Source of the DNA: Paraspadella gotoi
Lineage: Eukaryota; Animalia; Chaetognatha
Length of the DNA stretch: 64,000 nucleotides
Assembly: GCA_051294375.1 (NCBI GenBank)
Contig: CM119267.1
Coordinates: forward strand, 18,454,992-18,518,991
Direction of reading: 5' to 3'
Shown one piece after another: positions 1-47,670 of the stretch. Position 1 is the first letter of the stretch; each line of letters opens with the position of its first letter. Position numbers and translations under genes: made by a program. The notes below the pieces were generated by a model. The model saw only the letters and a program-made list of their open reading frames with translations, did not search any database and was not told where the DNA came from.

Positions 1-862
1 TCAAACTTTTCCTGGAATTCACAGCGGAATATTCAAAGCATGCTTTTTGTCATGCTAAATGATTCTATGTAGCCGAAAACCTTACAAATGCCAAGGAAAA
101 TATGGCAAGATTAATTTTGTTTCATAAAATTTTTTGGCACAAAACTCACTGCGTACAAAACAGTTTTATTTAAACTAAGTTACTACTGGACAGATTATAA
201 ACCGGCCACGTCCTAGGACTTTTGCAGTTATGAAAGACTGTTGATGGACGGTGAGTCATAATTAGAGTATGATCGGTTTGCTTTTTTTGGTATTATATGA
301 TGCGTGGCACTGTTTGAGGTTACCAGGCCATTGTTAATGGCATTATCATTATCAATACGACACTTAAAGCATATGACTAATTAGCATAGTTACGTCAAAA
401 CGCTTGTCAAGTGCACGCAGGTTGGCTTAATAATTAAAATGAATTGTTTAAGTAGAAAATTATCTACTACTTGCAAATATTTTTAAAAATTCATCTACCG
501 TAATAGGAGGTAATAAATAAAATCAACAAATAAAGTCATATACAGCAAAGCTAATTTGAGATCAAAGCAGTGATAGGTGTAAAAATAAAAGTACCGAGTG
601 GTTTGGTGAATGGGCTATTATAAAATAAAGAAAAATTCTCTTAGACATTTAGTATCCATTGGCCATACAAGCAATCCTACAGCTGGTATCATTTCGGTTC
701 ATCCGTTGATCTACAAATATAATTCAAAATAAAAAATCGTCTATTAGAACAAATTGACGTCATTTCGCCCTTACAAGCATGAAAAAAATTGAACTACGTA
801 AAAATATATAGTCGGGCATTGCCTAGGTACACCCCGCCTATAAGCATGACTCTTTCAGTTGT

Positions 863-1040
863 GACCCGGTGGCTCATTGAGTAAAGCCATCAGCTCATGA
901 CCACTAGGTACCGGGTTCAATCCCAACCTGGTACCTACCCTGCGGGAAGAGTGAGGACGGCCGTAAGCCGCCTTGAGGGCATGGCAAACCCTCAAGCCTG
1001 GTTCCAAGCCCAGGACCCGTTCCATGTCTGCTAGAGGGGG
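863..1040 (+). mobile_element. tRNA-headed short repeat (SINE-like), family 1, carrying a twister-like ribozyme
   Basis: A-box TGGCTCATTGAG (870-881) and B-box GGTTCAATCCC (914-924) precede the twister fold at 942-1020. A decayed relative is at 47572-47670 (-). Confidence 0.7.
942..1020 (+). ncRNA. type-P5 twister ribozyme-like motif (family 1)
   Basis: P5 GCGGG/CCCGT; AA-GAGT-GA-GGA; linker CGGCCG; UAA at 964-966; GCC-GC; P3 CTTGAGGG/CCCTCAAG; P4 CCTGG/CCAGG with loop TTCCAAGC. Pseudoknots are TCC/GGA and GC/GC. Confidence 0.65.
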
Positions 1041-1176
1041 TTATAGAAGTTACGGATAGTCATCTTCTGCCCACTTAGCGCCTTATCCACAAATATATTT
1101 TTAAAGCTCTTTCTACTAATTATAGTAAATCATAGGCTTTAACATCAATATGGTTTATTTTTATTTGGTAATTGAC

Positions 1177-3024: not shown

Positions 3025-3299
3025 CTGAAGAGACAGTAATTATTGTTGTGTTAGTGACATAATCGTTCAATATAAGCAGTCACTGAGCTTCGGATCAGGC
3101 TGTAACACCGTGTTACAGGCGGGTTAAGCGCCCCGTCCCTCTTAACGGCTAGGCGACCACCGGGCAAGAACACCGGACCTTTGGGTTGGAAGGTGAATGA
3201 CTTGCCTCCGGCACCAATGGCCGCTGATGAACGGTTGGTGGATTTTAGTCCACCATACACCCTCTGTCCCGTAGGGAGAAGTCTGTTGCATCTCTTCAG
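3025..3299 (-). mobile_element. family 2 element: short TIRs (CTGAAGAGA..TCTCTTCAG) enclosing tRNA-like head plus twister
   Basis: Colinear with 29712-29988 (+) over ~275 bp, including both termini. Confidence 0.85.
3076..3149 (-). ncRNA. type-P5 twister ribozyme-like motif (family 2, copy A)
   Basis: Reverse complement GCCGTT-AA-GAGG-GA-CGG-GGCGCT-TAA-CCC-GC-CTGTAACA cgg TGTTACAG-CCTGA-TCCGAAGC-TCAGT-GACTGC. One mismatch each in P4 and P5. Confidence 0.68.
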
Positions 3300-3434
3300 T
3301 GAATTGTTGTTGGTGGAAAGTTCGTCACCAAGCTGAGGCATGTCGCCTGATGTGTTGTTGGTAGAAAGTGCATTGCCAGGTTTAGGCATTTTGAGTGTTG
3401 TTATTGCTGTTGTGTTTGGAAGTCAGGCTCACTA

Positions 3435-3652
3435 ATGAAGAGACAATAATTATTGTTATGTTCAATATAAGCAGTCCCTGAGCTTCAGATCAGGCTGTAA
3501 CAGTATTACATGCGGGTTAAGCGCCCCGTCCCTCTTAACTGCTAGGTGCCACTGGCTAGAACCCCGGACCTTTGTGTCGGAGGCGAATGACTTGCCTCCG
3601 GCAGCAATGACCGCTGATGAACGGTTGGTGGATTTTAGTGAACCATATATCC
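3435..3652 (-). mobile_element. family 2 element, copy B (one terminus missing)
   Basis: Begins TA-ATGAAGAGAC and is colinear with copy A through the twister and tRNA-like head. It ends near GATTTTAGTGAACCATA. Confidence 0.8.
3471..3542 (-). ncRNA. type-P5 twister ribozyme-like motif (family 2, copy B)
   Basis: P5 GCAGTT/GACTGC and P4 CCTGA/TCAGG are intact. Loop TCTGAAGC keeps the T1 pseudoknot with CGG via a U-G wobble. P3 is shortened. Confidence 0.65.
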
Positions 3653-4332
3653 ACAAAAGAAGAAATAACTAATAAGACCAAAAGACAAACTAAAAAAAAA
3701 AAATTATTTCGGTTAAAATAATTTCAAAATTATGACAGTTTTTGTTATTATTATTATTTCAGAACTTCTTTTCTCGCTGGCTATGCGATCTTAAATTAAA
3801 TCTTAATTATTGTGCCAATTGCAAAATATTATGATCTTTCTACAAGTATATATACATCACCTTTGCTATGGCTTAAAATATTTTTGTTTTGTCGATGTTA
3901 CAAATCAAACTATTTGGTTGCTCCTGCTTTAAAGCATACTATTTATTTATATTACTCTTCACAAGGCTAGTTAAATTACTCGATACGATTGTGACTGAAG
4001 ATTTTTTTAAAATACAGGGAAGATATTATAATAAATGAAAAAAAAGAGAAATAAAGAATAAATACACTATCCTGAAAGATTGGCGAGATAGAAATGTTAT
4101 GTATGTTTGAAAGAATGAAAAAATATAAGAATTATGGGAGCGGAAGGTTTGTGGGCTATAGAATTGTAGTTAACACTTTTTAAATCAAACCTAATCCTAA
4201 TATCTTAAGCTTCCACTGCAAATTTATATAATTTATAACAAGACATCTTATAAGATAAGGCTGTATGGGTTTCACAAGTTATTTTTATTGAATAAGTGCT
4301 CATCTATATTCTTCCTACTCTTAGCATTTTTC

Positions 4333-4435
4333 GTGGATTAAAATTCATCGATCGTGAATAGCGGTCCATTGGAGCCTCAGTTAATCGCTCGGACCTGATG
4401 ATCTACTTCTAGCCCGATAGCCGCTTCGCAGTTAA
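4333..4435 (+). mobile_element. decayed family 2 remnant (tRNA-like head only)
   Basis: GTGGATTAAAAT..GCGGTCCATTGGAGCC..TTCTAGCCCGATAGCCGC..GCAGTTAA matches the family 2 head and stops at the first twister strand. Confidence 0.6.
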
Positions 4436-5126
4436 CTGTTATTCTCATCACTCATATTGTAAAATAGATATGACATTTTTGTAATGTAATTTTTGCCCTG
4501 ACTAGAAAAAATATATTTCATAAGATCAATAATAAGCTAATAGTAAAATCTTTTATTAGGCGTATATAGGGCGGAAAACTATTACAAAACGAAACTGAAA
4601 ATAGAAAATAGAGTTAAAAGTATAACAATAATGATTGTGACGCTTTTCAGACAAAATTAACAAAACACTATAAAGGTGTAAAATCCAGTTTAACAGCAAA
4701 CGTGGTTCTTAGATATTAAACAATTATATCATATAATGGCACTTTTGGAGGAATGAAAAGATTCAGATAAAAGGTTAAAAAAGTTAAACCAACTTTAAGT
4801 CTCAATGCCAATTAAAATCTCGGGATGAGAAAAAATGTATTAATTGCTAAATCAAATGAGAGAAAGCGAAAGTGTGAAAACTGGAATCTTTATATACGTA
4901 GAGCATACCAAAATACCGAGCTCAAGAAACACTCAAAGAGACAGATATTCCAGTGAGGGGAATGCGTAAGATATATCATGAATTTCTAAAAATTGACCTC
5001 ATTTTAACGTAAAAATGATAAAAGCTCGTAGAAAAAACCGAAGAAGAAGGTAATATTAAAATAGAAGCTTTTCTGCAAAGGTTATAGTAATCTGGTTGCT
5101 GCTCCTACAGATGAAAACTACCCCTG

Positions 5127-8100: not shown

Positions 8101-11100
8101 CGACTGGAGGCGGAGGAGGTTCCCGCTGCCGATTTGGAGGCGGTTGAGGCGGAGGGTGAGGCGGAGGGGAAGGCGGCGAAGGAAGAAGATAAGGGGACTC
8201 GACGGGAGAGCGCGGTGATGTGGGCGACTCGGGAAGATCAAGAATCTTGTGACTCTTTTTAATCCTCATTCGGTCGATGCTATCGGTACTGAAGAAAAAA
8301 TTACAAAAGGCGATGATGAGAATCAGTGCGCCGGAACGAAAACCGATGACGCAAAAGTGACTTTGGGCTGGTATCTCACTTGTAAGGATAGGCCGTGCTA
8401 CGAGTGAATCGGTATGGATCATGATTTTTGAACGATTCCTTCTTCTGAGGGGTACCACCAGTCGATCCTGAAAAACAAAAACGATACAGGAAACTTATTG
8501 GTCAATCAATACTATTGTCAATAGTCAAGTCAACCAACGTGACAAACCCTGAGGCGATTGTCCGTTGCTATTAACTTCTGACGCGCTGTCGAAGCTCCCT
8601 CGATGCTGACTGTTCCCGCCATTCTGTTCGTTGAGGTCTCCACTCGAAACCGGCAGCTTAATGACGTGCTTCGTTGGGAGAGGAGAGACGCCGGGACGAA
8701 GGCGCTCCATCGCGGACATATTTCGTTCGATCTGCTCGTTTGGTGAGCCATGTTTTTTTGTCGACCGAATCGTGGCGATTGCGTTAACACCTACATGAAT
8801 TTCAACTATTTGTACGTATTACCTATTTTATATTTCAAAGTTCGTTTACCTTTGGGCAAATAATCCAGATCTCTCTGAGTCAAGGACCTCATTCTTCCGG
8901 AGGTTCCCAGGGCGATGCTGCCCCTCTGACCGGATGGCTCTGGGTTCTGCCGCTTCAGCCGCGCTTCCAATTCTTCTTTCAGCGGGTTGGAGAACGCGGG
9001 TTGGAACCCATTGGTCGTCGGAATATTCGTCATCGGCGTTGGCGTTTTCTCACGCTCCTCGTTCCCATCGGTGACGCTCGGTGACGAAAAGGAGCGACGC
9101 AGTTTCTTCTTTTCCTCCTCGGTGGCGCCGTCGCCGACGTAGCCGGCGCCGCGAGGCGTCACGTCTTCGGAAGGAGGAGGAGGAAGAAGATGAGGAGGCT
9201 GAAGGAGAGGACTTCCCGCTTCGTCTTCGGCGATTGAGCCTCGACGAGATTCCGCAGCGGCGAATTCTCCATCACTGAAAAGGGTATATATAAGTAAAGA
9301 AGGATTCATATTATAAAATATTACAAATAGAACTATCGAGGCGAATTTCAATATTTGATCCATGAGTCGAGTTGCATAGTCGTTTACTCTTCCTCAAAAA
9401 CGTATTTGTTACCACGAAAATATTAGTTTACCTTAATTTTCAGCTTCATGAACATCAGTGGTTCAAATCAGATTTGGAATGATTTGGGAAAATTGGAAGT
9501 AAAACGATGAACCATGCTATGCTTAATTATTGAAAAGTTATCAACTTTAGTTCTAAATTTTTTTAAAATATGTTTAAAACGTAAATGCACCTGATGCAAC
9601 AAAAAAAAATGAATAAAAATTTTTTAGCTTTTTTTTTGACCCTCAGGGGTCCACCCCAGGGTCCTGTATCTCTTGTCAGGGGTTGAATATCAAAATTGGC
9701 CTCGAAAGTTCCATTTATATTGTCATTTAAGTAAGTAGACAGAGATTTCAACAAACAAAGTGGATTTTATTCTCAGAAAAGTCTCAAGCAAAGACGGTTT
9801 CAGAATTTTAGGCAGAATGGATTCAATACAAAATGTAAATGTAAAATTTTAATGAAATTCGATTGGGCAGTTTGGTGTGAACAGATTCTGGTCACAAAAA
9901 AGGGGTACTGTCCACAGTACCTAATTTTATAATTTGAAGCCTTCTGTATATATAAGAAGTAGTATGTAAATATGGTAAATCGAGCCCAAATAAAAAATTG
10001 TTCACAAACCTCTCTGGTGAAGATGCATATGAAAGTCTGGTGCCCATAGGAAAAAGATATTCGTCGTTTAAATCGTCTGCGTCGAGTGCAGATTCCGAGA
10101 TCCAAACGGGATCGCGTTGCTGACGATCGATTACCTACCAAAATCAAGAATATTAAAATGTGAATAAAAAAAGGACAAGGACATTTCTCAGATTCTCAGT
10201 GATCACCTCTCTCAGCTTGAGGTACCAAGCTGTCGGATCCCCAGCCAGTGATACGGTGGCGGTAAAAAGGTGACCGTAGACCGATTCCAGTTTCGTCGCC
10301 GTCTCGAAGAGTTTCCTCGAGGACTTTCTGGATCCTTTGGCCAGGTGTGCTCTGATCGACTTGACTTGGTGCTTTGTCTCCGCGCGAAGGAAAATTGCAA
10401 TAGGGTGGAGTTGGGCGTAGTTGAGACGATCCACGGCTGCGGGGGTTACGTCGAGAAGGCTGTGATAAAAACAAAAAAAATGTTTGAATGCTATGTTGCT
10501 TGCCAACAACTTTCTGTTATTGCTTCTCACCAATGTTTGTCTTTCTCGACGATGTCCCTGATCTGTTTGATCTTAATGATTCCGCTTTTCGGAGTGTTGA
10601 CTTGGTTAAAGTCGTCCTCTTCTCTTTTGACCTCGCCCGCATCTCCGCCGGCGTCGACTTGCGGCGACTCGAATGCGTGCGGAGCGTCGCGTAGCAGCAT
10701 GTGACGAGCTACGTCAGCCACTGCACCGAAAAGAACGATCGGTCTCACCAAACCTGTAAAAAAATAGCGGAAACGGAAAATAAAACCTGTCTTTGAATTT
10801 TATGTGGTAATTATCATTAGCTCACCAGGATGCTTCAACGCCACCCTCTCGTACGCAGGCCGCGTCTCCTTGGCGTCGATGGGGGAGAAAATGACGTCGT
10901 CCCAGTGATCTTTGCCCAGAGACTTGGAACGCTTGCTGCGGCGTCGGAACCAGGAGGCGCGGCGCCCAACCGACGCCGTCCCTGACGTGATGTTGGCAGA
11001 CATAGCATTTAGCGCCGTCTGGGGAATAATAAAAATTACTTGGCCAGTAATATACATAACATGCTACCCCGTTAGAGGACTTTGCTACTTAATTTAACCC

Positions 11101-14100
11101 TAAGCTAATAATACTCGCCTCTCTGGCTTCCGCGGCTATTTGCTCGGCCCGAGTCTTATTGGGAATTATCCCCCTTTGAGTCTCTTTGTTGCCCCGTCCC
11201 ACTCGTGCCGCCTGCCACGACCCCACCACGCCATTGTGCAACGTGTTGGTAATGTGAAAGACGTCTCCACGCACGAAGCTCATCTCGCCTATAAAATAAA
11301 ATAAAATAATAAAAAACTGTAAAAAGAATATAACTATATAATATACATAATATACTATAAAATTATAGTATATTACGCTCACCTCCTTCGTTAGGCTTGT
11401 AATCAAAATGAGCGCGCATGAATATGGAATCTCCGATGGAATTAGTAACGATTTCATCAAACTCCTGACAGGAAAAATCATTTTAACGTGAATGGGATAG
11501 TCTTCATCCCCATCACTCCGACTGCCTCACCTCTCTTCTGTATTGTGTAATGAGCTCAATGCGCTCCTTCAGCCCCAGTAGCAGCAGCAATGCATCTTCT
11601 CTAGTCAAGCCAACGAGTTCGACGTTGTTCGCCTTCACGATCTTTTCCCCCGCCGTGAGGCCTGCCATCGCCGCCGCCGAGGTTGGCTGAACGTTGGAGA
11701 CGAAGACTCCCGTCTTATTGCCACCGGCCAGTCGGAAACCGACTCCAGAGCCACTCTTGCGGAAAGCCACCACGCGAGTTAAGGGCTCCGGGGAGGCGAC
11801 GGCAGACGCATTCTTCTTCCGACGTCCCACCGTGCCCGAGGGGAACGGGTCGCGAGGGACGAAGGGCCTGTAATCCTCGTCTACGGGAGACTTCGAAGCC
11901 GGCATAGAGGCAGTCCTAACCAGGCTCACGGAAGGTTTCGGTTTCGGCGCCGGGGGAGACTTACGGTCATCCTGGGCAGGCGGGAGGATGGGCGATCCCA
12001 GATCGGTCGCTGGTGATGTGGCGTTGGCGCTGGCGAAACCAGAGGTGGCGCAAGAGTCGGGAGATCCAGCGTCAGGATAGTCCATGCCATCTAAGGGAGA
12101 ATAGGAAATATAACAGAAATAAATACAAATAAGATACGAAAAGAACTCGATCAAACTTACCCGCGGCTCCGACCGGCGACGACGAATCAAATCCATTAAG
12201 TAAATTGGCGTTATGAGGTGGGCGGCGGTCCAGGTTGGACGGTTTCTCGTCCGGCGATCCGATACCGACCCCGCCTCCTCGAGGAGTGGTCAACGTATTC
12301 GCTTTCGAGTTCACGTCTTTCTCCGGCAAAAGACCGAGTTCCGAGAGTTGAGAAGCGTTGCGCGAGTGGCGTGCCGAGGAGGCGGGGTGATCGGGAAGCG
12401 CCATGCGGAGGACGGAGAGGCTGAGGCGGTCTTTGGCCTAAGAAATGGCGGAGAAAAATTAACGAAGGAAAACAAGACCAATAAAATTCAGTTATGAAAA
12501 GAAAAGAAATCTAAAACGGCACACCTTGTCGATTTGTTTCCTCGCTTCAACCAGCGATAACATGTCGGCGGCTGTCGAATTAATTTTGACCACGACGTCA
12601 CCTTCATGAAGACTTCCGTCCACCGCCGCAACACTGAAGCGAATGAGATTTTAGATGAACTGAAACCGAAGGAGCCAATAGTATTCGAATGAAGCCCAAA
12701 TAAACCTGTTGGGAACGATTTCGCGAACGTAAAGTTGGTAGCCTAAAACGACGCCAAAGTCTTCCTTCTTTTTTGATCGCGAAAGGTTTACAGCGACAGG
12801 GACCAGTTCTGGCGTTACCACTTTCCTAGAATTCAAAGTTTATTTAAACCTCAGTTAGATCATAGAATTCAATCAAACCGTAGTCAATCGATACAAACCT
12901 CTTGATGACGAGGTTAACGGTGTCGCCGCTGTCCTTAAGCAACTCGATGGCGCTGTGGTGATCGACGTTCTCCAGCGAGATGCCATTCACGCTGACGATG
13001 CGATCGTTGATGCGGAGCTTCGTCTCCGCGGGACCCGCTTTGATCACGTCGGAGATGGCGATGGAAGGGTCGCCGTCGTCAAAATGAGGATTGTCTCTGA
13101 AGATTTATTTTTCATTTATTTTTCAAAACTTACCGTAAAAACGGCATAAAAAATTCGGGAACCCTTTTCTCCTACCTACTCCCACAAGCGCACCTGCCGC
13201 CGGAAACGGCGATTCCGAAACCCAAAGGCGGAACCCGCGTCAAGGTGACCGAATGAACATCCCAAGAGATTCTTTCTCCGACGTCGATACCCTGCAATGC
13301 CGCATCAACCGAGTCGGTCCCAGCGCCGCCGGACACAAACGAAGCGGCACCGGCTTCTAGCGCGCGGAGCTTGTCCCAAAGAAGACGCCGGTTGGGGGAT
13401 CGAGACCGATTGGCTGACGAGTCGAACAGAGAATCGCGGGAGTTTGTCATGGAACCGTTGGGGGGAACCTGAGTCGGAGTAACACGAAAAGTGAGGACGC
13501 GATAATGTACAGTTGTATTTATTTCTAATCAGGTAATACCTGCAAATGCGGAGCAGGTCCCCTATTGAGATTCGGGGAGACGGAGGATCCTTTGGAGAAG
13601 TTGGAGCTAATAACGCCGGCCAACGAATCACGTTCTGCACGAAGCTCTTCAACCCGGCGTTGCGCTTCGTTTCGTTGACGCATCATCGCTGCTTGTTCAC
13701 GTAGCGCCATGTCACGCTCCTGGTAAAATAAAGGCAGGTAGTAGGTAGAATTGGGGCAAGAAAATTAAACGTCCTCGAGCTTCTCACCCTGAGAGCGATT
13801 TCGAGTCCGACTTGAGAAGATGGATCGTCGAGCGGCGTGGGTGAGGGGGAGGAGAACTCTGGACTGCACGAGTCGAGAAGAAATGAAGTGAGAAGATGAG
13901 GATGACGCTTCTCCAACGAGGAACAAAAGTCGTGAAAGGAGCCGATTCCCTTGCGGGACAGAATCTCCAAAAACTTGTTGACTCTGAGAAATCATGAGAA
14001 CAAATTACATGAAAAGAATTTGGCGGTACGACTTTCATCCGCCTCAACGCTGTCTGTCTGAGGGGGCTAAATCATCTCGTAACAACCAACCGTGCGCCCT

Positions 14101-14485
14101 GGGTTCAAACCCTGGGTATCCAAGTTCTGGCATAAATGTGACGGGACCGGCTTAAACATGCCAGTGACAAGAGGCGATAACTGAGATTCCGCATCCCCTA
14201 TTCCGATTGGTGAGATACCCCGCGCCACAAGTAACACCGTTACTATAAATTATTAATTTTTTACCTACCCATACCCAGTTTTACACACCTTAGCTCGTTG
14301 GTTGACTCGTTCAAAATATCGTGTTTCTCCCCTTCCTCGAAGATGCCCTTGTCCATGAGCAGGGGCAGCACCGACTCCAGATCCAACTCCCGCAAGATCG
14401 AATCGCGGTGCTTAGCGAGGAGACGCTCGACGTGGCCGACCGGCGGTCCAGAGGCCAGAGACGCCATGGACGAGACGGAAGTCAT
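5127..14485 (-). CDS. TJP1: ZO-1/Polychaetoid tight-junction MAGUK: CARD, coiled coil, 3 PDZ, SH3, GUK, Pro-rich region, ZU5 (multi-exon)
   Basis: PDZ1 [29 protein letters not shown]; PDZ3 [16 protein letters not shown]; SH3 [34 protein letters not shown]; [37 protein letters not shown]5 exons [14 protein letters not shown] (~6700), [25 protein letters not shown] (5553-5730) and [17 protein letters not shown] (5127-5297). Confidence 0.93.
9297..9946. mobile_element. TA-flanked MITE (Tc1/mariner-type ends) in a ZO-1 intron
   Basis: Ends AGAAGGATTCATATTATAAAAT / ATTTTATAATTTGAAGCCTTCTG with TA on both sides. The internal ~600 bp is colinear with 30066-30654. Confidence 0.8.
14095..14204 (+). 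ncRNA. decayed family 3: B-box plus type-P5 twister-like motif in ZO-1 intron 1
   Basis: B-box GGTTCAAACCC (14102-14112); GGCAT-AA-ATGT-GA-CGG-GACCGGCT-TAA-ACAT-GC-CAGT..ACTG-AGAT-TCCGCATC-CCCT-ATTCC. P2 ACAT/ATGT and pseudoknot CCG/CGG are perfect; P4 and loop AAGC are mutated. Confidence 0.5.
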
Positions 14486-16538: not shown

Positions 16539-19245
16539 TCACTTCTTGGCGGGTCGGACCCAGGTAGCAGCGGGTTTCTCATTCGGAACGGGACCGCCGT
16601 TACGGGCCCCAAAGCTGGGAAATTCCTTGTTGGAAGTTAAATCCAACGGTTTGCTGCTTTTCCCCGTTTTAGGCTTTGTTCCGACATCGTCCTGGGAGAG
16701 AAAAAAAAATTAGTATTGGCAAAAAATATAATTTTAGTCATTTTCATATCCGTTGTTGAAGAACGCTTACTAAAAAATACTAAAATATTCTTCAAAATTT
16801 TTGGTTATTATTTATGCTGATGAAGGCATGAAGTAAACAAGCCGAAACATGTCCAACTATAAATTAAAAATCGTTGTTACAAATTCAAAATTCTTTTCTT
16901 TCTCTAAGGTTATTATTTAATATTGAACCATTAGTAAAAAAAATAAAAAAATAATCAATTATCAATTACAGTATTTTCTTTGATTTTCTTATCAAAAAGC
17001 AAACTTTCTCAGACTTTTATTTTTCTTCGATCTTCATTATTTTAACCGTGCCCAGGGAGCAGCTGCCGTACAGCCTCTGCTGCGTTTCGTAACGCGAAAC
17101 AAAAGCAGCTTTAAGTCATTAACAATTCTCCAGGCCTCCGGTGCCTAATCCAACTAAGAAGAAATAATCGCAGGTCAGCGAAAACAGAATATTAATTAAC
17201 CAGGGAATTGGCGATTTAGAATAAGATTTTCTTCGAAAAGATGAATGCCGTTAGTTAAAAATATATACATAGTATGCACCTAAGCCCATTTGTAGATTAA
17301 TCGGAGTTCTCCAAGAGTTTTTTGGAAACTCTTGGACTTTGAGACTGAGTCTCTATAATTAGGGGGAGACTAACTCAATAAGGTGGTTAAGAAATTGAAT
17401 TAAGCACCTACTCAAACGAAAATTTAGACATTTAAAAAAAAATTTGAATAGACAAAATTTTTTTATATTACTCCATACTCCATATATTAATTTTTTAATA
17501 TTTATTTATAAATAGGAAAGGCTAAAAATTTTTTTTGGATTTTTTTATTTTTAAGATCAGGTTCAGGTAGCTTGCAAAAAGTTGTCTACACAAAGTATTC
17601 TTTTTTCGATATTTTGATCATAAGTAGGTGAAAAATATGAAAAACTATTTATAATCATCATCATCATCATTTTTTGATAATTTTATTATTTTTTCTTAAT
17701 TTTGACCAAGAAAACATAAATATTTTCGAAAGTTGTAGTTAAATTTTTTATTTAACTTTTTATGCTCTATCAGAATCCATCAAAAAAGTTAAGATTGATT
17801 AAAAATTTGTTTTATCATTATATAGTAATATTGTAATTTTAATAGCAACAATAAAAGCATTAAAATCGAACTTTTTTAAAAAATATTTTTTTACCTAAAA
17901 GTAGACTTCAAGACTAAAGTTTTGAACCCCCGCCCCTATTGAATTTAATTTCATAGTAGATTTCTACTATAATAGATTTTTTTTTTAGATGAAAAGTGTT
18001 CAAAAGCAGACTAAAAAAGTTTTTCTGATATAGCGTTTCTTCAATATAAAATCGTTTGCGGTTCAACTTTTTTTAAAACCTCACCCCATTCTTGGGCCGG
18101 CTTGGGACCTCCGATTCGGCGCCGGCGCCGGCGGACGGAGAGCCTTCGCGCTCCCACGGCGCGTTGCGGACACGATACTCCGGAGGAGCATCACGAGAGG
18201 ACCCGTCGGCTCCCTTGCGCGAGGGAGGCTGCAGGTACACCTAAAATTCGGAGGACAGAATATTTACGTAAATATTGGTTGTACCAATTTCTTAAATAAA
18301 AAATCTTAAAAGTATAGTGATCTCGCAAGACGTTACTATCAAAGATTGATGCAATAACGAATTATTGATGTAATAGTAATTGATTAATATAATAATAATT
18401 AATAAATTATTATTATAATAATAGTTGATTGATTTAATAATAATTAATTGATTTAATAATAATTGATTGATTTAATAATAATTGATTGATTTAATAATAA
18501 TTGATTGATGTAATAATAATTGCTTATTGTTGCGATGATAACTAATTATTAATGCGATGATAACCAATTATTGATGCAATGATAACCAATTATTGATGCG
18601 ATGATAACCAATTATTGATGCGATGATAACCAATTATTGATGCGATGATAACCAAATGATAGAAGCGATGATAACCAAATGATAGAAGCGATGATAACCA
18701 AATGATGGATGCAATAATAATCATTTGATGCGATGAGTCATTTATCGTAAAATAAAACAAATGCGTGTATGAATGTGAAAGAAAAATCTTAAAAGCATAA
18801 GGATCAAGCCATGATGATAGTCATTCATTGATGCGATGATAGTCACTTCGATGTTCATATCGTAAATAAAACAAACAAATGCGTGTATGAGTGAAAGAGA
18901 GAGAGAGAGAGAGAGAGGCTGGACAGTTTTCCCGCCAACGAAACGCAATCAGAATTTTTAGGGAAAATCTTAAAAGCAATAGGGATCGAGCCAGCTTTCG
19001 ATGTAACCAAATATTAATGCGATGATAACTAAATATGATGCGATGATAACAAATAATTGATGCGATGATAATATAAATAACTGATGTGATGATAATCAAA
19101 TGATTGATGCGATGATAGTCATTCATTGATGTAGATGATAATCATTCATTGATATGATGATAATCATTCATTGATGCGATGATAGTCATTCATTGACGCG
19201 ATGAGTCATTCATCGTAAATAAAACTAACAAATGCGTGTATGAAT

Positions 19246-28926: not shown

Positions 28927-29019
28927 GATTAATTAAAAACAAAAATTTTCGTGGAACAACAATAAAGTTTTTTATTAACTTTATTGTTGTTCCACGAAAA
29001 TTTTCGTTTTTAATTAATC
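28927..29019. repeat. near-perfect ~43-bp-arm palindrome upstream of vigilin
   Basis: GATTAATTAAAAAC..TTCGTGGAACAACAATAAAGTT / AACTTTATTGTTGTTCCACGAA..GTTTTTAATTAATC with a 7-nt spacer. Confidence 0.85.
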
Positions 29020-29391
29020 ATAATTCTAAAACTACGATATATGCTTACCTTTCGTGACCTGATTAAGTAACTGGTTTCTAGTTTGCGATGTTGATTAGGT
29101 TTTGGATGATTAACGCTTGTCTCGTAATCAAAAGGTCGGTTCCGGTTCTGCGTAGTACGAAGTACCACGTCCGAGAAATCAGTCCTGAGGTTAGCTACCC
29201 CCGTCAAGAAGACATAGAAACGATGGCAATTCGCCTGAAAATTGAAAGGAACGAAGCGTCCCAAACATTTACAGCAATAATTTTTTTTCGTTTGTAACAT
29301 TTATTGACAGGATATCTAATATCTATGTAATAATAAGTTGTATGATAATTGATTTTGTGGTATAATCCTTTCTTTTCGTTGTGTAATAATT

Positions 29392-29601
29392 ATTAGAAAA
29401 GTTTGAAATGAATTTTCAACAACGATTTTATTTTTAATAAAAAAATGGACATGTTTCGGCTTAATTACAAGCCTTCATCAGCATTAAAAACTTTTTAATG
29501 CTGATGAAGTAATTAAGTAATTAAGTAATTAAGCCGAAACATGTCCATTTTTTTATTAAAAATAAAATCGTTGTTGAAAATTCATTTCAAACTTTTCTAA
29601 T
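29392..29601. repeat. ~100-bp-arm palindrome made of two divergent hammerhead-bearing units
   Basis: The arms are reverse complements around C29491. The right arm has a GTAATTAA expansion replacing one strand of helix II. Confidence 0.85.
29444..29485 (-). ncRNA. intact minimal hammerhead ribozyme (Penelope-like type I)
   Basis: Reverse complement AATG-CTGATGA-A-GGCTT gtaatt AAGCC-GAAA-CATG-TC-CATT: full core, helix I AATG/CATT, 5-bp helix II, palindromic helix III and a GUC triplet. Confidence 0.78.
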
Positions 29602-29711
29602 GATAATTGATTTTAAAAGTATTGGTTTTGCATTTACCATTATTTATAATAAAATATATTTGTAATGAGTCTTTGTCATCTACAGAAGGCTTCATATTAT
29701 AAAATGAGGTA

Positions 29712-29988
29712 CTGAAGAGACGCAACAGACTTCTCCCTACGGGAGGGGGGATGTATGGTGGACTAAAATCCACCAACCGTTCATCAGCGGCCATTGGTGC
29801 CGGAGGCAAGTCATTCGCCTCCCAACCCAAAGGTCCGGGGTTCTAGCCCGGTGGTCGTCTGGCAGTTAAGAGGGACGGGGCGCTTAACTCGCCTGTAACA
29901 CGGTGTTACAGCCTGATCCGAAGCTCAGGGACTGCTTATATTGAACGGTTCTGTCATTAACACTTATCAATTATCACTGTCTCTTCAG
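29712..29988 (+). mobile_element. family 2 element, full copy C: TA-CTGAAGAGAC..GTCTCTTCAG-TA with tRNA-like head plus twister
   Basis: Perfect 10-bp TIRs and TA on both sides. Acceptor-like stem GCGGCCA (29787)/TGGTCGT (29852), A-box-like TGGTGCCGGAGG and B-box-like GGTTCTAGCCC (29839-29849). Confidence 0.85.
29862..29935 (+). ncRNA. type-P5 twister ribozyme-like motif (family 2, best copy)
   Basis: P5 GCAGTT/GACTGC; AA-GAGG-GA-CGG; linker GGCGCT; UAA 29885-29887; CTC-GC; P3 CTGTAACA/TGTTACAG; P4 CCTGA/TCAGG; loop TCCGAAGC. Pseudoknots are CCG/CGG and GC/GC. Confidence 0.75.
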
Positions 29989-30664
29989 TACCCCTTTTTT
30001 GTGACCAAAACTCGTTCCGAGAAAACTACTGGACCAAATTTGGTATGAACGATCCCTATGTGAATACAAATAGAACTATCGAGGCGAATTTCAATATTTG
30101 ACCCCTGAGCCGAGATATGGGGCAAAAAATGGTCAAAAAGTTTTTTCAGATTTTTTTATTATTTTTGTTTTTAACAGTTGCATAGACGTTTACTCTTCCA
30201 CAAAAACGTATTTATTACTTCAAAAATATTAGTTTACCTTAATTTTCAGCTTCATGAACATCAGCAGTTCAAGTCAGATTTGGAATAATTTGGAAAAATT
30301 GGAAGTAAAACGATGAACCATGCATCTTCAAACAATGCTTAATTATTGAAAATTCATCAATTTTAGTTCTAAAATGTTTTTTTCATGTTTAAAACGTCAA
30401 TGCACCTGATGCTACTAAAAATTTTGAAAAATGAAAAAAAAATTTTTAGCCTTTTTTGGCCCTCCTTGGGTCCATTCCCAGGGCCCTGTATCTCTTGTCA
30501 GGGGTTCAATATCAAAATTCGCCTCGATAGTTACATTTATATAGTCATTAGTACTCTAAATGTAAAATTTCATTAAATTCAATCGGGTAGTTTGGTGGGA
30601 ATAGATTCTGGTCACAAAAAAGGGGTACCTCATTTTATAATATGAAGACTTCTGTAGCTATTAT

Positions 30665-31850
30665 TATTATTATAATTTGATACTTAGTCAATTCGATTTT
30701 CTATTTTCTTTCTGATAATTAAAAAAGTCGTTAAAATTATAGAAAAAACGAATATGAGGTAACTATTTTACAATTGCTTTTCTTTGCTATTAATACTTCA
30801 TTTGTCATTTTTTTCAAATTCAACTAAAATTAATTGATTGTGAATTATTAAAAGATAAGCAGTCGATGGAATTGAGGGAATTGAAGGACTTTTGGAGATT
30901 TTTTTAACATTGGCAATAATACAATTAATTAAAATTTTACATCAAGAATGCCAGACGCCGGGCTCAAAAGTGAATTACAATTTAAGTCTCTTTGTCTCTC
31001 TTTAAGTCTTTGCCTACCCAGGAAACAAAAGAAAAACTATGTAGTATTTATAAAAAACCACAAATAAAAGCACATTGATAGTAAATTCAAAAAAATAAAT
31101 CCCTTTTAAAGAAACATAAAATTTAATAGGGTACAAAATTTAAAATTAAAATTAATTGATTACAAAGTTGTAAGTCTAAATTTTATATTGTACAACGAAT
31201 TTAGGAACATTTGGGACATGTTTCGGTCTTTCATTCAAAATTAAAATTTAAAACCGTATATTATTATAATTTGATACTAAGTCGATTCGATTTTCTATTT
31301 TCTTTCTGATAATTAAAAAAGTCATTAAAATTATAGAAAAAACGAATATGAGGTAACTATTTTACATTTGCTTTTCTTTGCTCATTAATACTTCATTTGT
31401 CATTTTTTTCAAATTCAACTAAAATTTAATTGATTGTGAATTATTAAAAGATAAGCAGTCGATGGAATTGAGGGAATTGAAGGACTTTTGGAGATTTTTT
31501 TAACATTGGCAATAATACAATTAATTAAAATTTTACATCAAGAATGCCAGACGCCGGGCTCAAAAGTGAATTACAATTTAAGTCTCTTTGTCTCTCTTTA
31601 AGTCTTTGCCTCCCCAGGAAACAAAAGAAAAACCATGTAGTACTTATAAAAAACCACAAATAAAAGCACATTGATAGTAAATTCAAAAAAATAAATCCCT
31701 TTTAAAGAAAAATAAAATTAATCGGGTACAAAATTTAAAATTAATTGATTACAAAGTTGTAAGTCTAAATTTTGTATTGTACAACGAATTTAGGAACATT
31801 GGGACATGTTTCGGTCTTTCATTCAAAATTAAAATTTAAAACCGTGTATA
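30665..31850. repeat. tandem duplication of a ~590-bp unit
   Basis: ~30665-31258 and ~31260-31850 are nearly identical (e.g. GAATGCCAGACGCCGGGCTCAAAAGTG occurs twice). Confidence 0.9.
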
Positions 31851-34021: not shown

Positions 34022-35785
34022 TCAGTCGACACCATAACTTCCAAAATGTTCGTCATCAGGATACGCCATTCGCGATCCATCGTTTAGTCGGTACTTTTGT
34101 CCAGGTAGAAAAAGGTCAAAATATTTCCAAATTCTAGGATGATCAAACTCGGTTGGAAAAATTTCAACCATTTCATCTTGAGGGCCGTAATACAATTGGC
34201 CATTATTAAACATCATGGTATAAAATGGTTGATCAGGTTTGCTCTTATATTCTTCCACCCTCCACTTTTCAATCCACCGACTGGATTCGTTGCATGCAAA
34301 ATCCCAACCAACGACAACGGAAGATTCATCCGTTTTTGTTAGACGGACTACTTGTCCGACCCAAAATTTTATATTAGGATGTTCAGATCGGCGTTTCGGT
34401 ACCGGAATTGACGATTCACTTAAGTTACGTTCGATCGCAACCTTTGCCTTATCAATTAATTGCTGCTTAAAAAGTATCGTGAACCGTTCATCGGTACCCG
34501 AATTCTCTAACAACTCCACTGCTGCATCAAGTTCCCAGTCCTTTTCGATATATACCCTTGCTAAATATATTTCATGTACATAAGAATTAGGATTTAATAT
34601 ACGAAGCAATCTAAATATTTGGATAAAGAATCTATAACTATCCTCAGTGCCTCTACGTAAGGATCTGAAATCGTTTATCTGACGACGGAGAAGTAAATGC
34701 GGGGAAGACGGTCTAGTTAATCCATCGATCGAAGCACCTGATAAATAATGGCGGGCTTCGAAGGCAGAAACTAGCCGTCCTTTTTTGAACGTGTCGATGT
34801 ACACTAGGTCATTTGGGGAACTGGAATGATTCGGACGCCAAAGAAGCAGAACATGACGATCGAGATCTATTGGTTCACATAAAACACCAAGTCTTCTAGC
34901 GATGGCGGCGTATATGATAGAAAGAATTAAGGGAATACCCTTTTTAGTTTCAATAACTACATCGATTAAATTATCAAAATTACAAAAATGTTCTGGGATT
35001 CCTTTAAAGTCGTCTTGAATGAACATTACCTCATTCAAACATTCCAAAATCTGCTGCCCTTTTTCGTCGAAAAAAACCGGGCAGTTAACAGTAGTAGTGC
35101 GGGTTATAGGATGAGTTGGATATTTTAAACCAACTAATGTCTTTACCCGTTTCGATGCTTCCTCTAAATACTCTAAAACTTCTCCTGGGAAAAAAACTTT
35201 TTCGGGTCGACACCATTGAGAAAGAACGAGCGAAAACAATTCGTGTGGAACATTTTCCTGTGGGTGTAGTCTTCCGAAAATCCGTTTTAGAATAACACGC
35301 TTTACGTGAATGAGAGTTTGGGAATAATAGTAATGCAGAGATAGGTTTTTTTCTGTCTGGAGAGCGTTATGGAGCTCTCCCAAAATAAAGCATTCACCAT
35401 TTGGTTCATTTTGCCACAAAGCGTCTATAGCTTCAAAATCGGCTTTCTCTAAATAAGGTTTGTTGTAGTAACGTATGACGAGCTTCGATATAATATTTCT
35501 GATTTTCACTCTTCGAATAGTGAAAATTTTGAAAAGTGAAAACCAATCGTTGGTGGAAATTGGTTTTCCATTTCCGAAGATTGGATCCAAGGAATATTTG
35601 TTTGAAAAATAAAATTCTCTATTAAAATAATTTTTCCACGTGGTAGAAGTTGAATCGAAGATCAAACATTTAAAAGATTTGCAAGTCGAAGAAAGCCGCA
35701 CAAGATCCTTATAGTCAAGGATGGCGTTATCGTAAATTTTTTTCAAAAGTTCATTAGGTAAATCCTGTAATCCAGTCCGAAACAT
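34022..35785 (-). CDS. FBXO21: F-box only protein 21-like (F-box, SirB1/transglutaminase-like core, YccV/HspQ), single exon
   Basis: F-box LQDLPNELLKKI..LSSTCK; KKGIPLILSIIYAAIARRLG..YIDTF; C-terminal KFWVGQVV..VVVGWD..QPFY..HPRIWKYFDLF..YRLN..YPDD. Confidence 0.85.
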   Translation of the reverse strand: MFRTGLQDLPNELLKKIYDNAILDYKDLVRLSSTCKSFKCLIFDSTSTTWKNYFNREFYFSNKYSLDPIFGNGKPISTNDWFSLFKIFTIRRVKIRNIISKLVIRYYNKPYLEKADFEAIDALWQNEPNGECFILGELHNALQTEKNLSLHYYYSQTLIHVKRVILKRIFGRLHPQENVPHELFSLVLSQWCRPEKVFFPGEVLEYLEEASKRVKTLVGLKYPTHPITRTTTVNCPVFFDEKGQQILECLNEVMFIQDDFKGIPEHFCNFDNLIDVVIETKKGIPLILSIIYAAIARRLGVLCEPIDLDRHVLLLWRPNHSSSPNDLVYIDTFKKGRLVSAFEARHYLSGASIDGLTRPSSPHLLLRRQINDFRSLRRGTEDSYRFFIQIFRLLRILNPNSYVHEIYLARVYIEKDWELDAAVELLENSGTDERFTILFKQQLIDKAKVAIERNLSESSIPVPKRRSEHPNIKFWVGQVVRLTKTDESSVVVGWDFACNESSRWIEKWRVEEYKSKPDQPFYTMMFNNGQLYYGPQDEMVEIFPTEFDHPRIWKYFDLFLPGQKYRLNDGSRMAYPDDEHFGSYGVD

Positions 35786-45863: not shown

Positions 45864-46979
45864 TCATACGACATCAAAGAAGTCCCTGCCGATTTCCTCG
45901 GATGCCACGCTGAGGGTGCGATTCCGCTCTATTTCGATCGAAGAAGCGTCCTTAGTTCGAGCTTCTCGCTCCACTTCAATCCCGTTTCCTCCAACATTTC
46001 GCTCAGCCTCGTCGATTTTCTCCTTCAACCGCAGGAGGCTGTTCACTGCCGCAGATTCTTCCTCCAGTCGCTCGTCAACCATCCGCTTGTAGAACTTAAA
46101 GGCGAAGGCGACGAGTAGGATGAGGAGTGGAATGACGACGGCGACGCCCACGTAGGAGGCGATCGGGGATAAGCGGACGAACTTGATCCAGCAAAGCAGA
46201 CCAACCTCTACGAGGAAGAGAAGGATGCCAATACCGGTGGAGAAGATCCAAGCGATCTCCACGAAAAACCGCAGGGATTCGTAGGGTATTTCGTCGAGGG
46301 CTGATAAGCTAAAACATGAAGGGTTGGGAAATCTCTGTTTCGTAAAGATAACCAGAAAACGCATCGACAATAGCAAGGCAAAAAAGAAAATTTCTAACCT
46401 TAAACCGCTTGGTTTCTTGAGAATTTTCCATCTGTTATTCACACCGCTTGTTAAGCGAGATGGAGGGTTGACGGTTTCGAGTGAGGGTAGAATGCAAGTC
46501 GAGATCAGCAGTGACAAAGTGTGAGTGGCGATGAGGAGCGTCGTCACCGCAGCAAAGATCGCGTACCACACTTTGTCATCCTCTGTCGGCGAATTGTTGA
46601 GTTGCAATTCCACCTAGATTAACAATAATTATCTTGTAAGAGTGATGGAGGCCTTAAACCACCAAAGCCTGTCCAAAGTCAGGGGCAAGATAGCTTATTT
46701 ATTAAATGAATGGATAACTTTTATATTGGTTGTACCGATTTCATAAAGGCTTAGACATAGCCGGGGAAACAGAAAAATAATTTTTTCCCCAAGTAAACTG
46801 TCAATTTTATAAATACGAACCATAGCGACCATGGCGAAGCCGCTGAGCAAGGCGGACGTTCTCGATGTGGCTTTGAGCTTGGCGCGGTCCAAGAGGAATC
46901 TCCGCCAACGCCTCGACGAAGGCGATCGGGAGTTGGCTAATGGATCTCTGTTTTCGCTGCGCTTTTCCAAGCCCTCCAT
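45864..46979 (-). CDS. ORAI1: ORAI calcium release-activated calcium channel (3 exons)
   Basis: [27 protein letters not shown] (selectivity Glu), [38 protein letters not shown]. Confidence 0.93.
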
Positions 46980-47571
46980 GACGTTGGCGAAAGTGTAGCG
47001 GAAACATTCTCATCACAGTCTTTTGATTTTCATGCTCTCTGAGAGATTAGCGTTTTTGACAGAGCGAGATTTATCTATCAATGGCCAAAATTAAAGTTTT
47101 TCTAGTTATATTAATTTAAAGGAAGGATATTTCCATATTAATGCTTTTAAAACAGCTATTCACGAATTAAAAAAAAAATATTTTTATAAACCATGTGCAT
47201 TGTGCAATTTTGTGAACAAATGCCCAACAAAAGCACTTAGGCAACTGCACAGGATCAGTTGGAAGTTGCCAATAGGGTGGGATAGCTTTTACTTTTATTT
47301 TGTTCACCTTATCTACCGTAGAAGAAATTTGTCACGTTTCGTAAATTTTTATTTTTTATAAAGACACGGGTAGTGGGTGAGCGGAAAAACAAGAATAGGT
47401 TAAGAATTGTAGGTTTGCTCAGTAAAGTTTATTGAAATATTCATTACGTAAGTAAATTCTGAAAATTTTCTCAAGACGATTTGAACGAATTAAATAAATT
47501 TTCTAGGTAAATATTGATATCAAAATGGACTAAAGGCGACTGTTCATTCCTTCTCAGCAGCATAGCCACAA

Positions 47572-47670
47572 ATGCAACGGGTCCTACCTTTGTAATAACC
47601 AGGTTTAGGCGGTTGCCACGCAGGAACGATACGGGATTGGTATCGAACTCGGGACCATGAGCCACCGGGA
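47572..47670 (-). mobile_element. decayed, internally deleted family 1 copy
   Basis: The reverse complement shares CCCGGTGGCTCAT, GGTCCCGAGTTCGATACC (B-box), CCTGCG, CCGCCT, CCTGGTT and AGGACCCGTT-CAT in the same order as 865-1025. Confidence 0.55.

What the first reader, a model, noticed from the sequence alone, without database searches (positions are those of the whole stretch)
29787..29935. Candidate new system: tRNA-headed elements with a built-in type-P5 twister ribozyme (best copy; three families in window)
Seen: a tRNA-like unit (acceptor-like stem 29787-93/29852-58, A- and B-box-like motifs, T-arm) is followed after 3 nt by a complete permuted twister fold. It has a 6-bp P5, 8-bp P3, 5-bp P4, loop UCCGAAGC, GA, UAA and both pseudoknots. 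Across families the T1 pseudoknot covaries (CCG/CGG here and at 14142; TCC/GGA at 955; canonical CCC/GGG), and the stems differ in sequence but pair. Known: twisters cleave U/A leaving a 2',3'-cyclic phosphate and 5'-OH; P1-less mini-twisters can be active; animal twisters are known from non-LTR retroelement contexts; phage theta (HDV-like) ribozymes trim tRNA 3' trailers. I know of no tRNA-head plus P5-twister repeat class. Inference: Pol III transcripts self-cleave at 29885/29886, releasing a ~99-nt tRNA-like RNA and a 5'-OH body. This could serve end definition, RtcB ligation/circularisation or self-limitation. An alternative hairpin GTTAAG/CTTAAC would mask the site and could act as a switch.
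Basis: partly seen in the sequence, partly recalled or inferred. Interest (0 to 1): 0.92.

Follow-up and report, generated by a model that had tools for sequence, protein, structure and literature searches.

The report
tRNA-headed repeats with palindromic twister ribozymes
Very abundant short repeats in this invertebrate genome join a tRNA-like start to a twister self-cutting RNA fold whose first helix is replaced by a six-base palindrome, so it is predicted to cut mainly when two copies pair, and the repeats likely ride on Penelope-type retrotransposon enzymes; cutting has not been tested.

Summary
The type-P5 twister fold at 29862-29935 is real. A descriptor blind to the linker finds 4 hits in the window (3 families) against 9 in 60 shuffles, and both pseudoknots covary. 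It lies inside a dispersed, very high-copy repeat with fixed ends (29754-29987). Adjacent bases 3/4 covary, which only intermolecular pairing explains, so a domain-swapped double twister is predicted. P2 has 3 pairs plus a bulge. By eye the same variant sits near the 3' ends of 5 of 8 bivalve Naiad Penelope-like consensuses (0 of 10 arthropod ones) in a supplement whose paper never mentions twisters. Best reading: a Penelope/Naiad-borne SINE-like element with a dimer-gated twister. Cleavage, Pol III use and the partner element are untested.

The parts
29754..29987 (+). Family A element, main form (copy A1)
   Evidence: Loose ends with unrelated flanks before 29754 (173 contigs, plus 47 at 29753) and behind 29987 (108 contigs) in run X1; same places in X5 and X9
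29713..29753 (+). 5' extension of the long form; its first 9 nt are the reverse complement of the element's 3' end
   Evidence: Shared with copy A2; inverted repeat; depth about 10-20% of the core in X1
29709..29712 (+). Left copy of a 4-bp target duplication GTAC (right copy 29988-29991)
   Evidence: Empty-site contigs skip 279 nt, 29708 to 29988, with 4 letters fitting both sides, in X1, X5 and X9
29756..29775 (+). Leader hairpin at the fixed 5' end
   Evidence: Predicted fold
29775..29950 (+). 9-bp sub-terminal inverted repeat (29775-83 / 29942-50) enclosing head and ribozyme
   Evidence: pair probabilities mostly above 0.9
29787..29858 (+). tRNA-like head: acceptor-like stem, A-box-like and B-box-like motifs, T-arm
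   Evidence: Sequence, acceptor pair probability 0.98; not called by ARAGORN, Rfam or a tRNA model in register
29862..29935 (+). Type-P5 twister fold with 3-bp-plus-bulge P2; G29874 is the general-base position by analogy; predicted cut 29885/29886
29879..29884 (+). Self-complementary 6-mer GGCGCU in place of P1
   Evidence: 6 of 6 self-pairs, duplex -8.3 kcal/mol, no monomer hairpin; no variant listed at 5% or more
3025..3300 (-). Family A copy A2 (long form, 92% identical to A1)
3436..3652 (-). Family A copy A3 (short form, more decayed)
809..1091 (+). Family B element: leader, tRNA(Met)-like head 863-937, twister 942-1020, palindrome CGGCCG 958-963, predicted cut 964/965
   Evidence: Ends; head; Rfam Twister-P5 16.3 bits, below gathering 37.6
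46630..46692 (+). Family E: headless minimal twister, palindrome AGGCCU 46649-54, T1 UGG/CCA, T2 AC/GU; antisense in an intron of an Orai gene
   Evidence: Held-out hit 33.1 bits, E 2.8e-8; Rfam Twister-P5 25.8 bits, E 0.0012
14020..14305 (+). Family C, decayed (ends approximate): B box at 14103, 4-bp P2, linker GACCGGCU with a CCGG core, damaged P4, loop and T2
4327..4436 (+). Old A-like relic: leader and head up to the first P5 strand, no ribozyme
   Evidence: nhmmer E 2.8e-5
47522..47657 (-). Old B-like relic with deletions
   Evidence: nhmmer E 1.8e-4

Best explanation
These are short, very high-copy dispersed repeats that join a tRNA-like head to a type-P5 twister fold whose P1 helix is replaced by a 6-nt palindrome; they are likely non-autonomous passengers of Naiad-type Penelope-like retrotransposons, and the ribozyme is predicted to cut mainly when two copies pair. 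Shown: the fold, its covariation, the palindrome, the fixed ends, the high abundance, and that the cut site is internal. Inferred steps: (1) The head acts as an internal Pol III promoter (about 0.5). (2) A lone transcript folds into an off-state hairpin that buries the U/A site, so it stays whole and is the template for target-primed reverse transcription by a Penelope-type RT-endonuclease (about 0.6). (3) When two units meet, in a multimeric transcript or as two RNAs held together, the palindromes form one shared 6-bp P1. The 5' strand of each RNA then completes the active site of the other and both are cut (active in some state about 0.75; dimer-dependent about 0.6). (4) The cut trims multimers or removes surplus transcripts; it does not set the ends of the inserted copy.
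For: Fold and covariation. All 4 hits of a linker-blind descriptor (length 2-30 allowed) have a fully self-complementary 6-mer, against 0 of 9 shuffle hits and a background of 4.7% of 6-mers. Family E was found after the idea was noted (note; hit) and has a third palindrome. Adjacent positions 3/4 switch C-G to G-C, and adjacent bases cannot pair within one strand. In two-dimensional energies the swapped dimer narrows the gap to the off-state from 9.5 to 3.7 (A1), 9.3 to 1.2 (B) and 8.3 to 1.8 (E) kcal/mol per site. Listed family B variants in the ribozyme fall on the predicted bulge (950), in loop L3, or keep a pair (967, 976). The same P2 variant with palindromic linkers is seen by eye near the 3' ends of Naiad_Mgal, Bpla, Mphi, Scon and Mmer. 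Penelope hammerheads with palindromic stem III cleave as dimers (review PMC6765202). An Anolis PLE inserts unprocessed RNA into AT-rich DNA, and its protein is predicted to be a dimer (PMC11167929). Ends are fixed and flanks unrelated and AT-rich. Duplications differ in length: 4 bp at A1 (empty sites seen) and 6 bp at B (low complexity).
Against: No cleavage data. P2 departs from the canonical 4 pairs, and a review reports the suggestion that changing P2 length may disrupt the active site (PMC5408937). The same review says P1-less twisters cut at near wild-type rate, so monomers may be active. The best cofolded structures are not the catalytic dimer (-62.3 vs -41.5 for A1; -74.8 vs -63.3 for B), and pseudoknots are not scored. 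No autonomous partner could be sought (no genome held), and none of 25 window ORFs scanned is an RT or GIY-YIG. 0 of 10 arthropod Naiad ends showed the motif, while one protein search leans to arthropods for this host. The bivalve motifs have two palindromic stretches, not one, and no tRNA head was seen there. The 33- and 54-nt leaders are not explained by an internal Pol III start. Family A's head fails the tRNA model in register, and family E has no head. The T1 guanine G29920 is mutated in 13% of X1 depth.
Confidence: 0.5

Rival explanations
1. One reading: a Pol III SINE whose monomer transcript self-cleaves as a P1-less mini-twister, releasing a ~99-nt tRNA-like RNA and a 5'-OH body.
For: P1-less twisters are active (PMC5408937). 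Positions 1 and 6 of the linker could close a tetraloop in one molecule. The head and ribozyme are 3-8 nt apart in A and B. Sm-alpha is a Pol III SINE-like element with a hammerhead (PMC6765202).
Against: It does not explain the full palindrome or the covariation of adjacent bases 3/4. The monomer is predicted to bury the site (P2 probability at most 0.02). Genomic copies keep both halves, with no depth step or listed end pile at the cut. Leaders lie upstream of the head.
Confidence: 0.2
2. The repeats are 3'-end fragments (pseudo-LTRs) of an autonomous Penelope-like element that itself carries the tRNA-like promoter. The fixed 5' end is a stop point of reverse transcription at the leader hairpin.
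For: A longer form exists, and 35 X1 contigs share further upstream sequence at 29711 (agreement 0.73). A hairpin sits at the 5' end in A and B. Naiads are heavily 5'-truncated (PMC8557442).
Against: Most copies start at one base with unrelated flanks (220 vs 35 contigs). The upstream frame of A2 matches no Pfam family. A2's upstream sequence may be a host repeat: a 7-mer recurs 3 nt past its 3' end.
Confidence: 0.15
3. The fold is an inactive relic or a protein-binding structure: selected as an RT-recognition or dimerisation signal, no longer cutting.
For: Non-canonical P2, Rfam scores below gathering, a stable predicted off-state, and ribozyme activity was dispensable for PLE insertion in vitro.
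Against: The catalytic G-A and U/AA and both pseudoknots are kept with compensation across 3 families, and by eye in 5 Naiads.
Confidence: 0.1
4. A DNA transposon (MITE or Helentron-like) that captured a tRNA-like piece and a ribozyme.
For: The long form has 9-10-bp terminal inverted repeats, and A1's flanks can be read as a TA duplication. There are sub-terminal inverted repeats and a terminal hairpin.
Against: The main form lacks the left repeat, A2 has no TA duplication, family B has no terminal repeats, and RNA-level structure is under selection.
Confidence: 0.05

Closest known systems
Type-P5 twister ribozyme (Rfam RF02684; review PMC5408937, passages read)
   Same: Order of strands, termini in P5, G-A, U/AA, P4 loop, pseudoknots T1 and T2; Rfam aligns families E and B in register
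   Different: P1 hairpin replaced by a 6-nt palindrome; P2 of 3 pairs plus a bulge; long P3 in A and B; scores below gathering; animal repeat context
Minimal hammerheads of Penelope-like elements that cleave as dimers (via review PMC6765202, passages; the primary papers were not read)
   Same: A palindrome replaces a hairpin so that two copies are needed; retroelement setting
   Different: Different ribozyme class; here the shared helix is twister P1; dimer cleavage is predicted only
Naiad Penelope-like elements (Craig et al. 2021, PMC8557442; passages, section 6, parts of the supplement)
   Same: By eye, 5 of 8 bivalve consensus 3' ends shown carry the same twister variant about 95-210 nt from the end; AT-rich or (TA)n targets
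   Different: Naiads are 3-4 kb and encode EN-RT; the paper reports no twister (0 occurrences); two palindromic stretches; no tRNA head seen; 0 of 10 arthropod ends show it
Sm-alpha SINE-like elements of Schistosoma (via PMC6765202 and PMC8490949, passages; Ferbeyre 1998 not read)
   Same: Short non-coding repeat with a Pol III promoter and a self-cleaving ribozyme
   Different: Hammerhead, often tandem, and the cut frees monomers; here dispersed copies with an internal cut site and a twister
Animal non-LTR retrozymes (PMC7229834 passages; bioRxiv 10.64898/2026.07.22.740005 parts 1-2 of 5)
   Same: 170-400-nt non-autonomous ribozyme elements linked to PLE pseudo-LTRs; some need dimers
   Different: Defined by type I hammerheads in tandem arrays; no tRNA head or twister in what I read
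Twister T-variants of Schistosoma Perere-3 (PMC8501958; abstract, sections 17 and 19, passages)
   Same: Twister with a weak or variable P1 in an animal retroelement
   Different: Type P1 order, 4-bp P2, at the 5' end of a LINE where the cut defines the end

Membership tests
Twister ribozyme, type P5 | Pseudoknots T1 and T2 and stem P4, termini in P5 | tested here: met
   All cells pair in T1 and T2 with double changes
Twister ribozyme, type P5 | Conserved core nucleotides (G-A, U/AA, loop U...AA) | tested here: met
   Invariant in A1, A2, A3, B and E; lost in C
Twister ribozyme, type P5 | Intramolecular stem P1 | tested here: not met
   6-nt linker cannot form a hairpin but is self-complementary; P1 is reported dispensable
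Twister ribozyme, type P5 | P2 of four Watson-Crick pairs | tested here: not met
   3 pairs plus a bulge in A, B and E; 4 pairs only in decayed C
Twister ribozyme, type P5 | Rfam RF02684 gathering score 37.6 | tested here: not met
   E 25.8 bits, B 16.3 bits, A1 no hit
Twister ribozyme, type P5 | Site-specific self-cleavage | not testable with these tools
   Only contigs were available; they cannot show RNA ends
tRNA-derived SINE | tRNA-derived head with A and B boxes | tested here: inconclusive
   B head is the top hit of a 13-sequence bacterial tRNA model (E 0.047); A head not matched in register; E has none
tRNA-derived SINE | Short, non-coding, dispersed, high copy, target duplication | tested here: met
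   4-bp duplication at A1 with empty sites
tRNA-derived SINE | 5' end at the head (Pol III start) | tested here: not met
   Fixed 5' ends 33 and 54 nt upstream of the heads
tRNA-derived SINE | A-rich or simple-repeat tail, or 3' end shared with a LINE | tested here: inconclusive
   No such tail in A or B by sequence; LINE partners could not be searched
tRNA-derived SINE | Pol III transcription | not testable with these tools
   Run X9 holds both families, but partly with host flanks
Non-autonomous Penelope-like (Naiad) element | 3' RNA motif shared with an autonomous clade | tested here: inconclusive
   Seen by eye in 5 of 18 Naiad 3' ends; not computed; other genomes
Non-autonomous Penelope-like (Naiad) element | Autonomous partner with the same 3' end in the same genome | not testable with these tools
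   No genome held
Non-autonomous Penelope-like (Naiad) element | Partial tandem or inverted pseudo-LTR insertions, optional 30-40-bp tail, variable duplications in AT-rich DNA | tested here: inconclusive
   Optional 41-nt extension, but at the 5' side; 9-nt inversion; duplications of 4 and about 6 bp; no go-back joint among the 15 of 80 and 15 of 95 shown
Non-LTR retrozyme | Type I hammerhead in each unit | tested here: not met
   No complete hammerhead pattern within A, B or E
Non-LTR retrozyme | Tandem arrays and circular RNA | tested here: inconclusive
   Window copies are dispersed; circles not testable
MITE | Terminal inverted repeats and a fixed-length duplication in the main form | tested here: not met
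   Main A form and family B lack them

The most novel reading that the evidence does not exclude
A class of Penelope-borne, Pol III-driven short elements that use a natural obligate-dimer 'double twister' as a copy-counting switch. One RNA stays whole and is inserted; two RNAs share a 6-bp P1 and cut each other, giving 5'-OH and cyclic-phosphate ends that RtcB could join into circles. The same ribozyme would be the missing counterpart of the hammerhead in a branch of Naiad retrotransposons, showing convergence on palindrome-gated dimer cleavage in two ribozyme classes.
Probability: 0.35. Interest if true: 0.85.

Novelty: new variant of a known kind. Interest (0 to 1): 0.68.

Why it matters
The job of ribozymes in Penelope-like elements is an open question, and Naiads were reported to lack the canonical hammerhead. 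A second ribozyme class that also swapped a hairpin for a palindrome in the same setting would show that dimer-gated cleavage, not the hammerhead itself, is what is selected. The 63-nt family E motif makes this directly testable. It would be a natural dimeric twister with a non-canonical P2, invisible to Rfam at gathering score and so likely under-counted in animal genomes. It could also serve as a concentration-dependent RNA switch. It adds to the case for SINE-like elements carried by Penelope rather than LINE enzymes.

Tried and rejected
Whole genome: none held, so no genome-wide count, duplication survey or partner search. Rfam gathering scan: 0 hits; E-value scans of A1 gave no twister. 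Pattern scans: 1 hit in viral contigs, lying in coding-like DNA with no stems, and 48 in metagenome contigs. Of these 49, 3 had T1 intact and none had P4 with at most 1 mismatch; all 21 loci that I checked by ARAGORN hold tRNA genes. The best score of my model on them was 18.1 bits. So no relatives outside the host were found. Because real tRNA anticodon arms match the 5' half of that pattern, I considered a second tRNA head; rejected, since P3, P4, T1 and T2 covary and the tRNA model's hit there is out of register (E 0.9). Sequencing runs: no holder was listed as RNA on record. X9 skips four introns of a neighbouring gene, so it behaves as a transcriptome, but contigs cannot show ends, strand or level. 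A hammerhead from the CUGAAGA motifs at the element's ends: no GAAA partner found, left unexplained. CpG decay: 8 of 13 CpGs in A1 show a transition at 5% or more; those in T1', the palindrome and P2/T2 do not, but the loop-side T1 CpG does; too weak to use. Host group: Drp1 is 57-69% identical over its full length to the 120 listed hits, which span insects, chelicerates, molluscs and lancelets; unresolved invertebrate. Loop 8-mers in the Naiad supplement found no twister because those loops end differently. The genome-contig scan was not used. bioRxiv supplements are closed and could bear on the retrozyme preprint. Dfam and Repbase are not available, so prior cataloguing of these repeats as plain SINEs is not excluded.

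Full report
Setting. The window is gene-dense animal DNA with short introns (PDZ/guanylate-kinase, vigilin, F-box 21, HPF1, FNIP, Orai, DnaJ, cofilin-type, RRM, radical-SAM and dynamin domains among 25 ORFs scanned; no RT or GIY-YIG). The host is an invertebrate of unresolved group. No genome is held.

Observation. A strict P5-order descriptor hits only 29874 in the window and once in 40 shuffles. A general descriptor that only requires pairing of P5, P2, P4, T1 and T2 and allows any linker of 2-30 nt gives 4 hits (953, 3137, 29874, 46644) against 9 in 60 shuffles. On an alignment of A1, A2, A3 and B, 97 of 100 cells pair and 10 of 25 pairs change on both sides. With E added, 97.7% of 132 cells pair and 15 of 28 pairs change on both sides, against 0-2 when partners are slid. 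That alignment was fitted to my model and holds only three independent families. T1 takes three forms (CGG/CCG, GGA/UCC, UGG/CCA) and T2 two (GC/GC, AC/GU). Rfam has no gathering hit; Twister-P5 scores 25.8 bits on E, 16.3 on B and nothing on A1, gathering being 37.6.

The head. A1 has a 7-bp acceptor-like stem, a B-box-like motif and a T-arm, but ARAGORN and Rfam do not call it, and its T-arm has a predicted probability of 0.04. A model from 13 bacterial tRNAs, a biased set, ranks family B's head first in 64 kb (863-937, 15.2 bits, E 0.047, CAU loop) and matches family A only out of register. So tRNA origin is fair for B and weaker for A. Family E has no head.

The element. At 80% likeness, 17,559 contigs of DNA run X1, 2,851 of X5 and 1,293 of X9 lie on 29640-30060; 7,393 of X1 and 564 of X9 lie on the family B stretch. 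Unique DNA in X1 has depth 208.6, against per-site sums of 2.5-4.3 million over A and 1.0-1.5 million over B. The tool warns that this is no copy number; it indicates thousands of copies each. Loose ends with unrelated AT-rich flanks pile up before 29754 (173 contigs, plus 47 at 29753) and behind 29987 (108) for A, and before 809 (105) and behind 1091 (63) for B. Only 19 of 675 and 16 of 557 loose-end rows were shown. Empty-site contigs skip 279 nt with 4 letters fitting both sides, giving a GTAC duplication for A1. A1 is a long form (from 29713) inserted into another repeat. The predicted cut lies 132 nt from the 5' end and 102 from the 3' end in A, and 156 and 127 in B. X1 depth runs 3.7, 3.3, 3.3 million across it. 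The cut therefore does not appear to set the ends of inserted copies. X9 skips four introns of a neighbouring gene and holds both families, partly with host flanks, which shows presence in transcripts only. The consensus has C at 29889 (96-100%), so A1's U-G pair in P2 is copy-specific. In B the predicted bulge (950) is the listed core position with the most states (C 73-81%, T 10%), 967 turns G-U into A-U, 976 turns A-U into G-U, and other listed changes are in loop L3 (14 rows not shown).

The palindrome. In a type-P5 twister both P1 strands are on one chain, closed by a loop. Here only 6 nt join T1' to U/AA, too few for a hairpin, and they are self-complementary: GGCGCU, CGGCCG and AGGCCU. 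I noted the idea. Family E turned up later as a held-out hit of a model built from A and B (33.1 bits, E 2.8e-8). All 4 descriptor hits have a perfect 6-mer, 0 of 9 shuffle hits do, and 4.7% of 6-mers in GC-rich context do. Positions 1/6 take three pair types, and adjacent positions 3/4 switch C-G to G-C, which one strand cannot use. I infer a domain-swapped dimer in which one 6-bp P1 serves two active sites. Without pseudoknot terms the monomer twister lies 9.5, 9.3 and 8.3 kcal/mol above the best monomer fold for A1, B and E, and the swapped dimer 3.7, 1.2 and 1.8 per site above two monomers. Against this, the best cofolds are other, non-catalytic dimers. The predicted off-state is a hairpin that puts U/AA in a loop (probability 0.66-0.74 in A1's ribozyme and whole element, 0.05 in a transcript starting at 29787 where P5 is also lost; 0.9-0.96 in B).

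The likely carrier. Earlier scan notes pointed to P1-less or palindrome-armed twisters in Naiad tails and to tRNA-headed Penelope-type short elements with hammerheads; these are unchecked leads. I checked the first in the supplement of Craig et al. 2021 (PMC8557442), reading about 500-600 nt at the 3' end of 18 of the 54 Naiad consensuses by eye. Five of 8 bivalve ends (Mgal, Bpla, Mphi, Scon, Mmer) show the same order: AAG-N-G-N, G-A, T1', palindromic stretches, (U/C)AA, a 3-nt P2 strand, T2 with a matching loop end, P3, P4 and P5. The first P2 pair is kept in all. None of 10 arthropod ends shows it. The paper's main text has no 'twister' and reports that Naiads lack canonical hammerheads, favour (TA)n and make 5'-truncated, tandem or inverted insertions. 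For an Anolis PLE, reverse transcription starts inside the RNA, targets are AT-rich, unprocessed RNA is the main substrate and the hammerhead needs the protein (PMC11167929, parts 1-2 of 4). That fits intact internal ribozymes in genomic copies. No partner was found in this host, so the link rests on a shared motif.

What is unexplained. The fixed 5' ends lie 33 and 54 nt before the heads, each at a hairpin, which an internal Pol III start does not explain. It may reflect a multimeric or circular template, an upstream start, or an RT stop. The 41-nt extension with a 9-nt inversion of the 3' end is also open.

Literature. Ten full-text searches listed no paper whose title or abstract start describes a tRNA-headed twister element, a palindromic or dimeric natural twister, or a twister in Penelope-like elements. 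The library lacks most subscription papers, Roth et al. 2014 was not read, and Dfam and Repbase were not available. Precedents read: Sm-alpha and dimeric PLE hammerheads (PMC6765202, passages; PMC8490949, passages), retrozymes (PMC7229834, passages; bioRxiv 10.64898/2026.07.22.740005, parts 1-2 of 5), Perere-3 T-variants (PMC8501958), twister anatomy (PMC5408937, passages) and permutations (PMC10085705, passages). The role of G29874 as general base is by analogy with solved twisters (recalled numbering).

Verdict. A real, selected twister-like fold in abundant short repeats. It works like a twister but fails two canonical features (intramolecular P1, 4-bp P2), so I file it as a variant, not a member of RF02684. 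Each ingredient has a precedent, while the combination and the palindrome-gated twister were not found in print. Interest 0.68.

Noticed in passing
window 29385-29608: A 224-bp palindromic element with two head-to-head Penelope-type minimal hammerheads (CUGAUGA...GAAA, self-complementary ACAUGU in stem III); the + arm has an expanded stem II repeat.
   Followed up: partly
window 16808-16887 (+): A single related Penelope-type hammerhead.
   Followed up: no
window 46620-46632 (+) and 3446-3458 (-): One AT-rich 13-mer occurs only just before family E's twister and in copy A3's 3' tail, so E may derive from a permuted or tandem A-like unit, or it is chance.
   Followed up: partly
window 46630-46692: Family E lies antisense inside an intron of the Orai gene, 17 nt from an exon boundary; its copy number is unknown.
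   Followed up: partly
window 29681-29708 and 29992-30656; 9322-9948: A1 is inserted in the end of another multi-copy repeat, with Helentron-like look by recall only; a second copy lies at 9322-9948.
   Followed up: no
window 3300-3436 (-): A3 and A2 lie in the same orientation 136 nt apart but are only 84% identical; sequence upstream of A2 recurs in 35 contigs, and an open frame of 123 codons with no Pfam match runs through A2.
   Followed up: partly
run X10 on window 899-1056: One contig of a second organism label (B) matches family B with 3 differences in 159 nt: a relative, transfer or contamination.
   Followed up: no
PMC8557442 supplement, 3' ends of Naiad_CGi and Naiad_Tgra: These oyster and ark-shell ends hold a different GC-rich structured tail that I did not resolve.
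   Followed up: no
window 30665-31849: A 595-bp tandem duplication, 96% identical.
   Followed up: no
window 28927-29019 and 62385-63019: A 93-bp AT-rich palindrome, and a pair of 45-bp inverted repeats about 630 bp apart.
   Followed up: no
window 58722-61019 and 34025-35776 (-): Drp1 and F-box 21 are uninterrupted reading frames in an otherwise intron-rich region.
   Followed up: no
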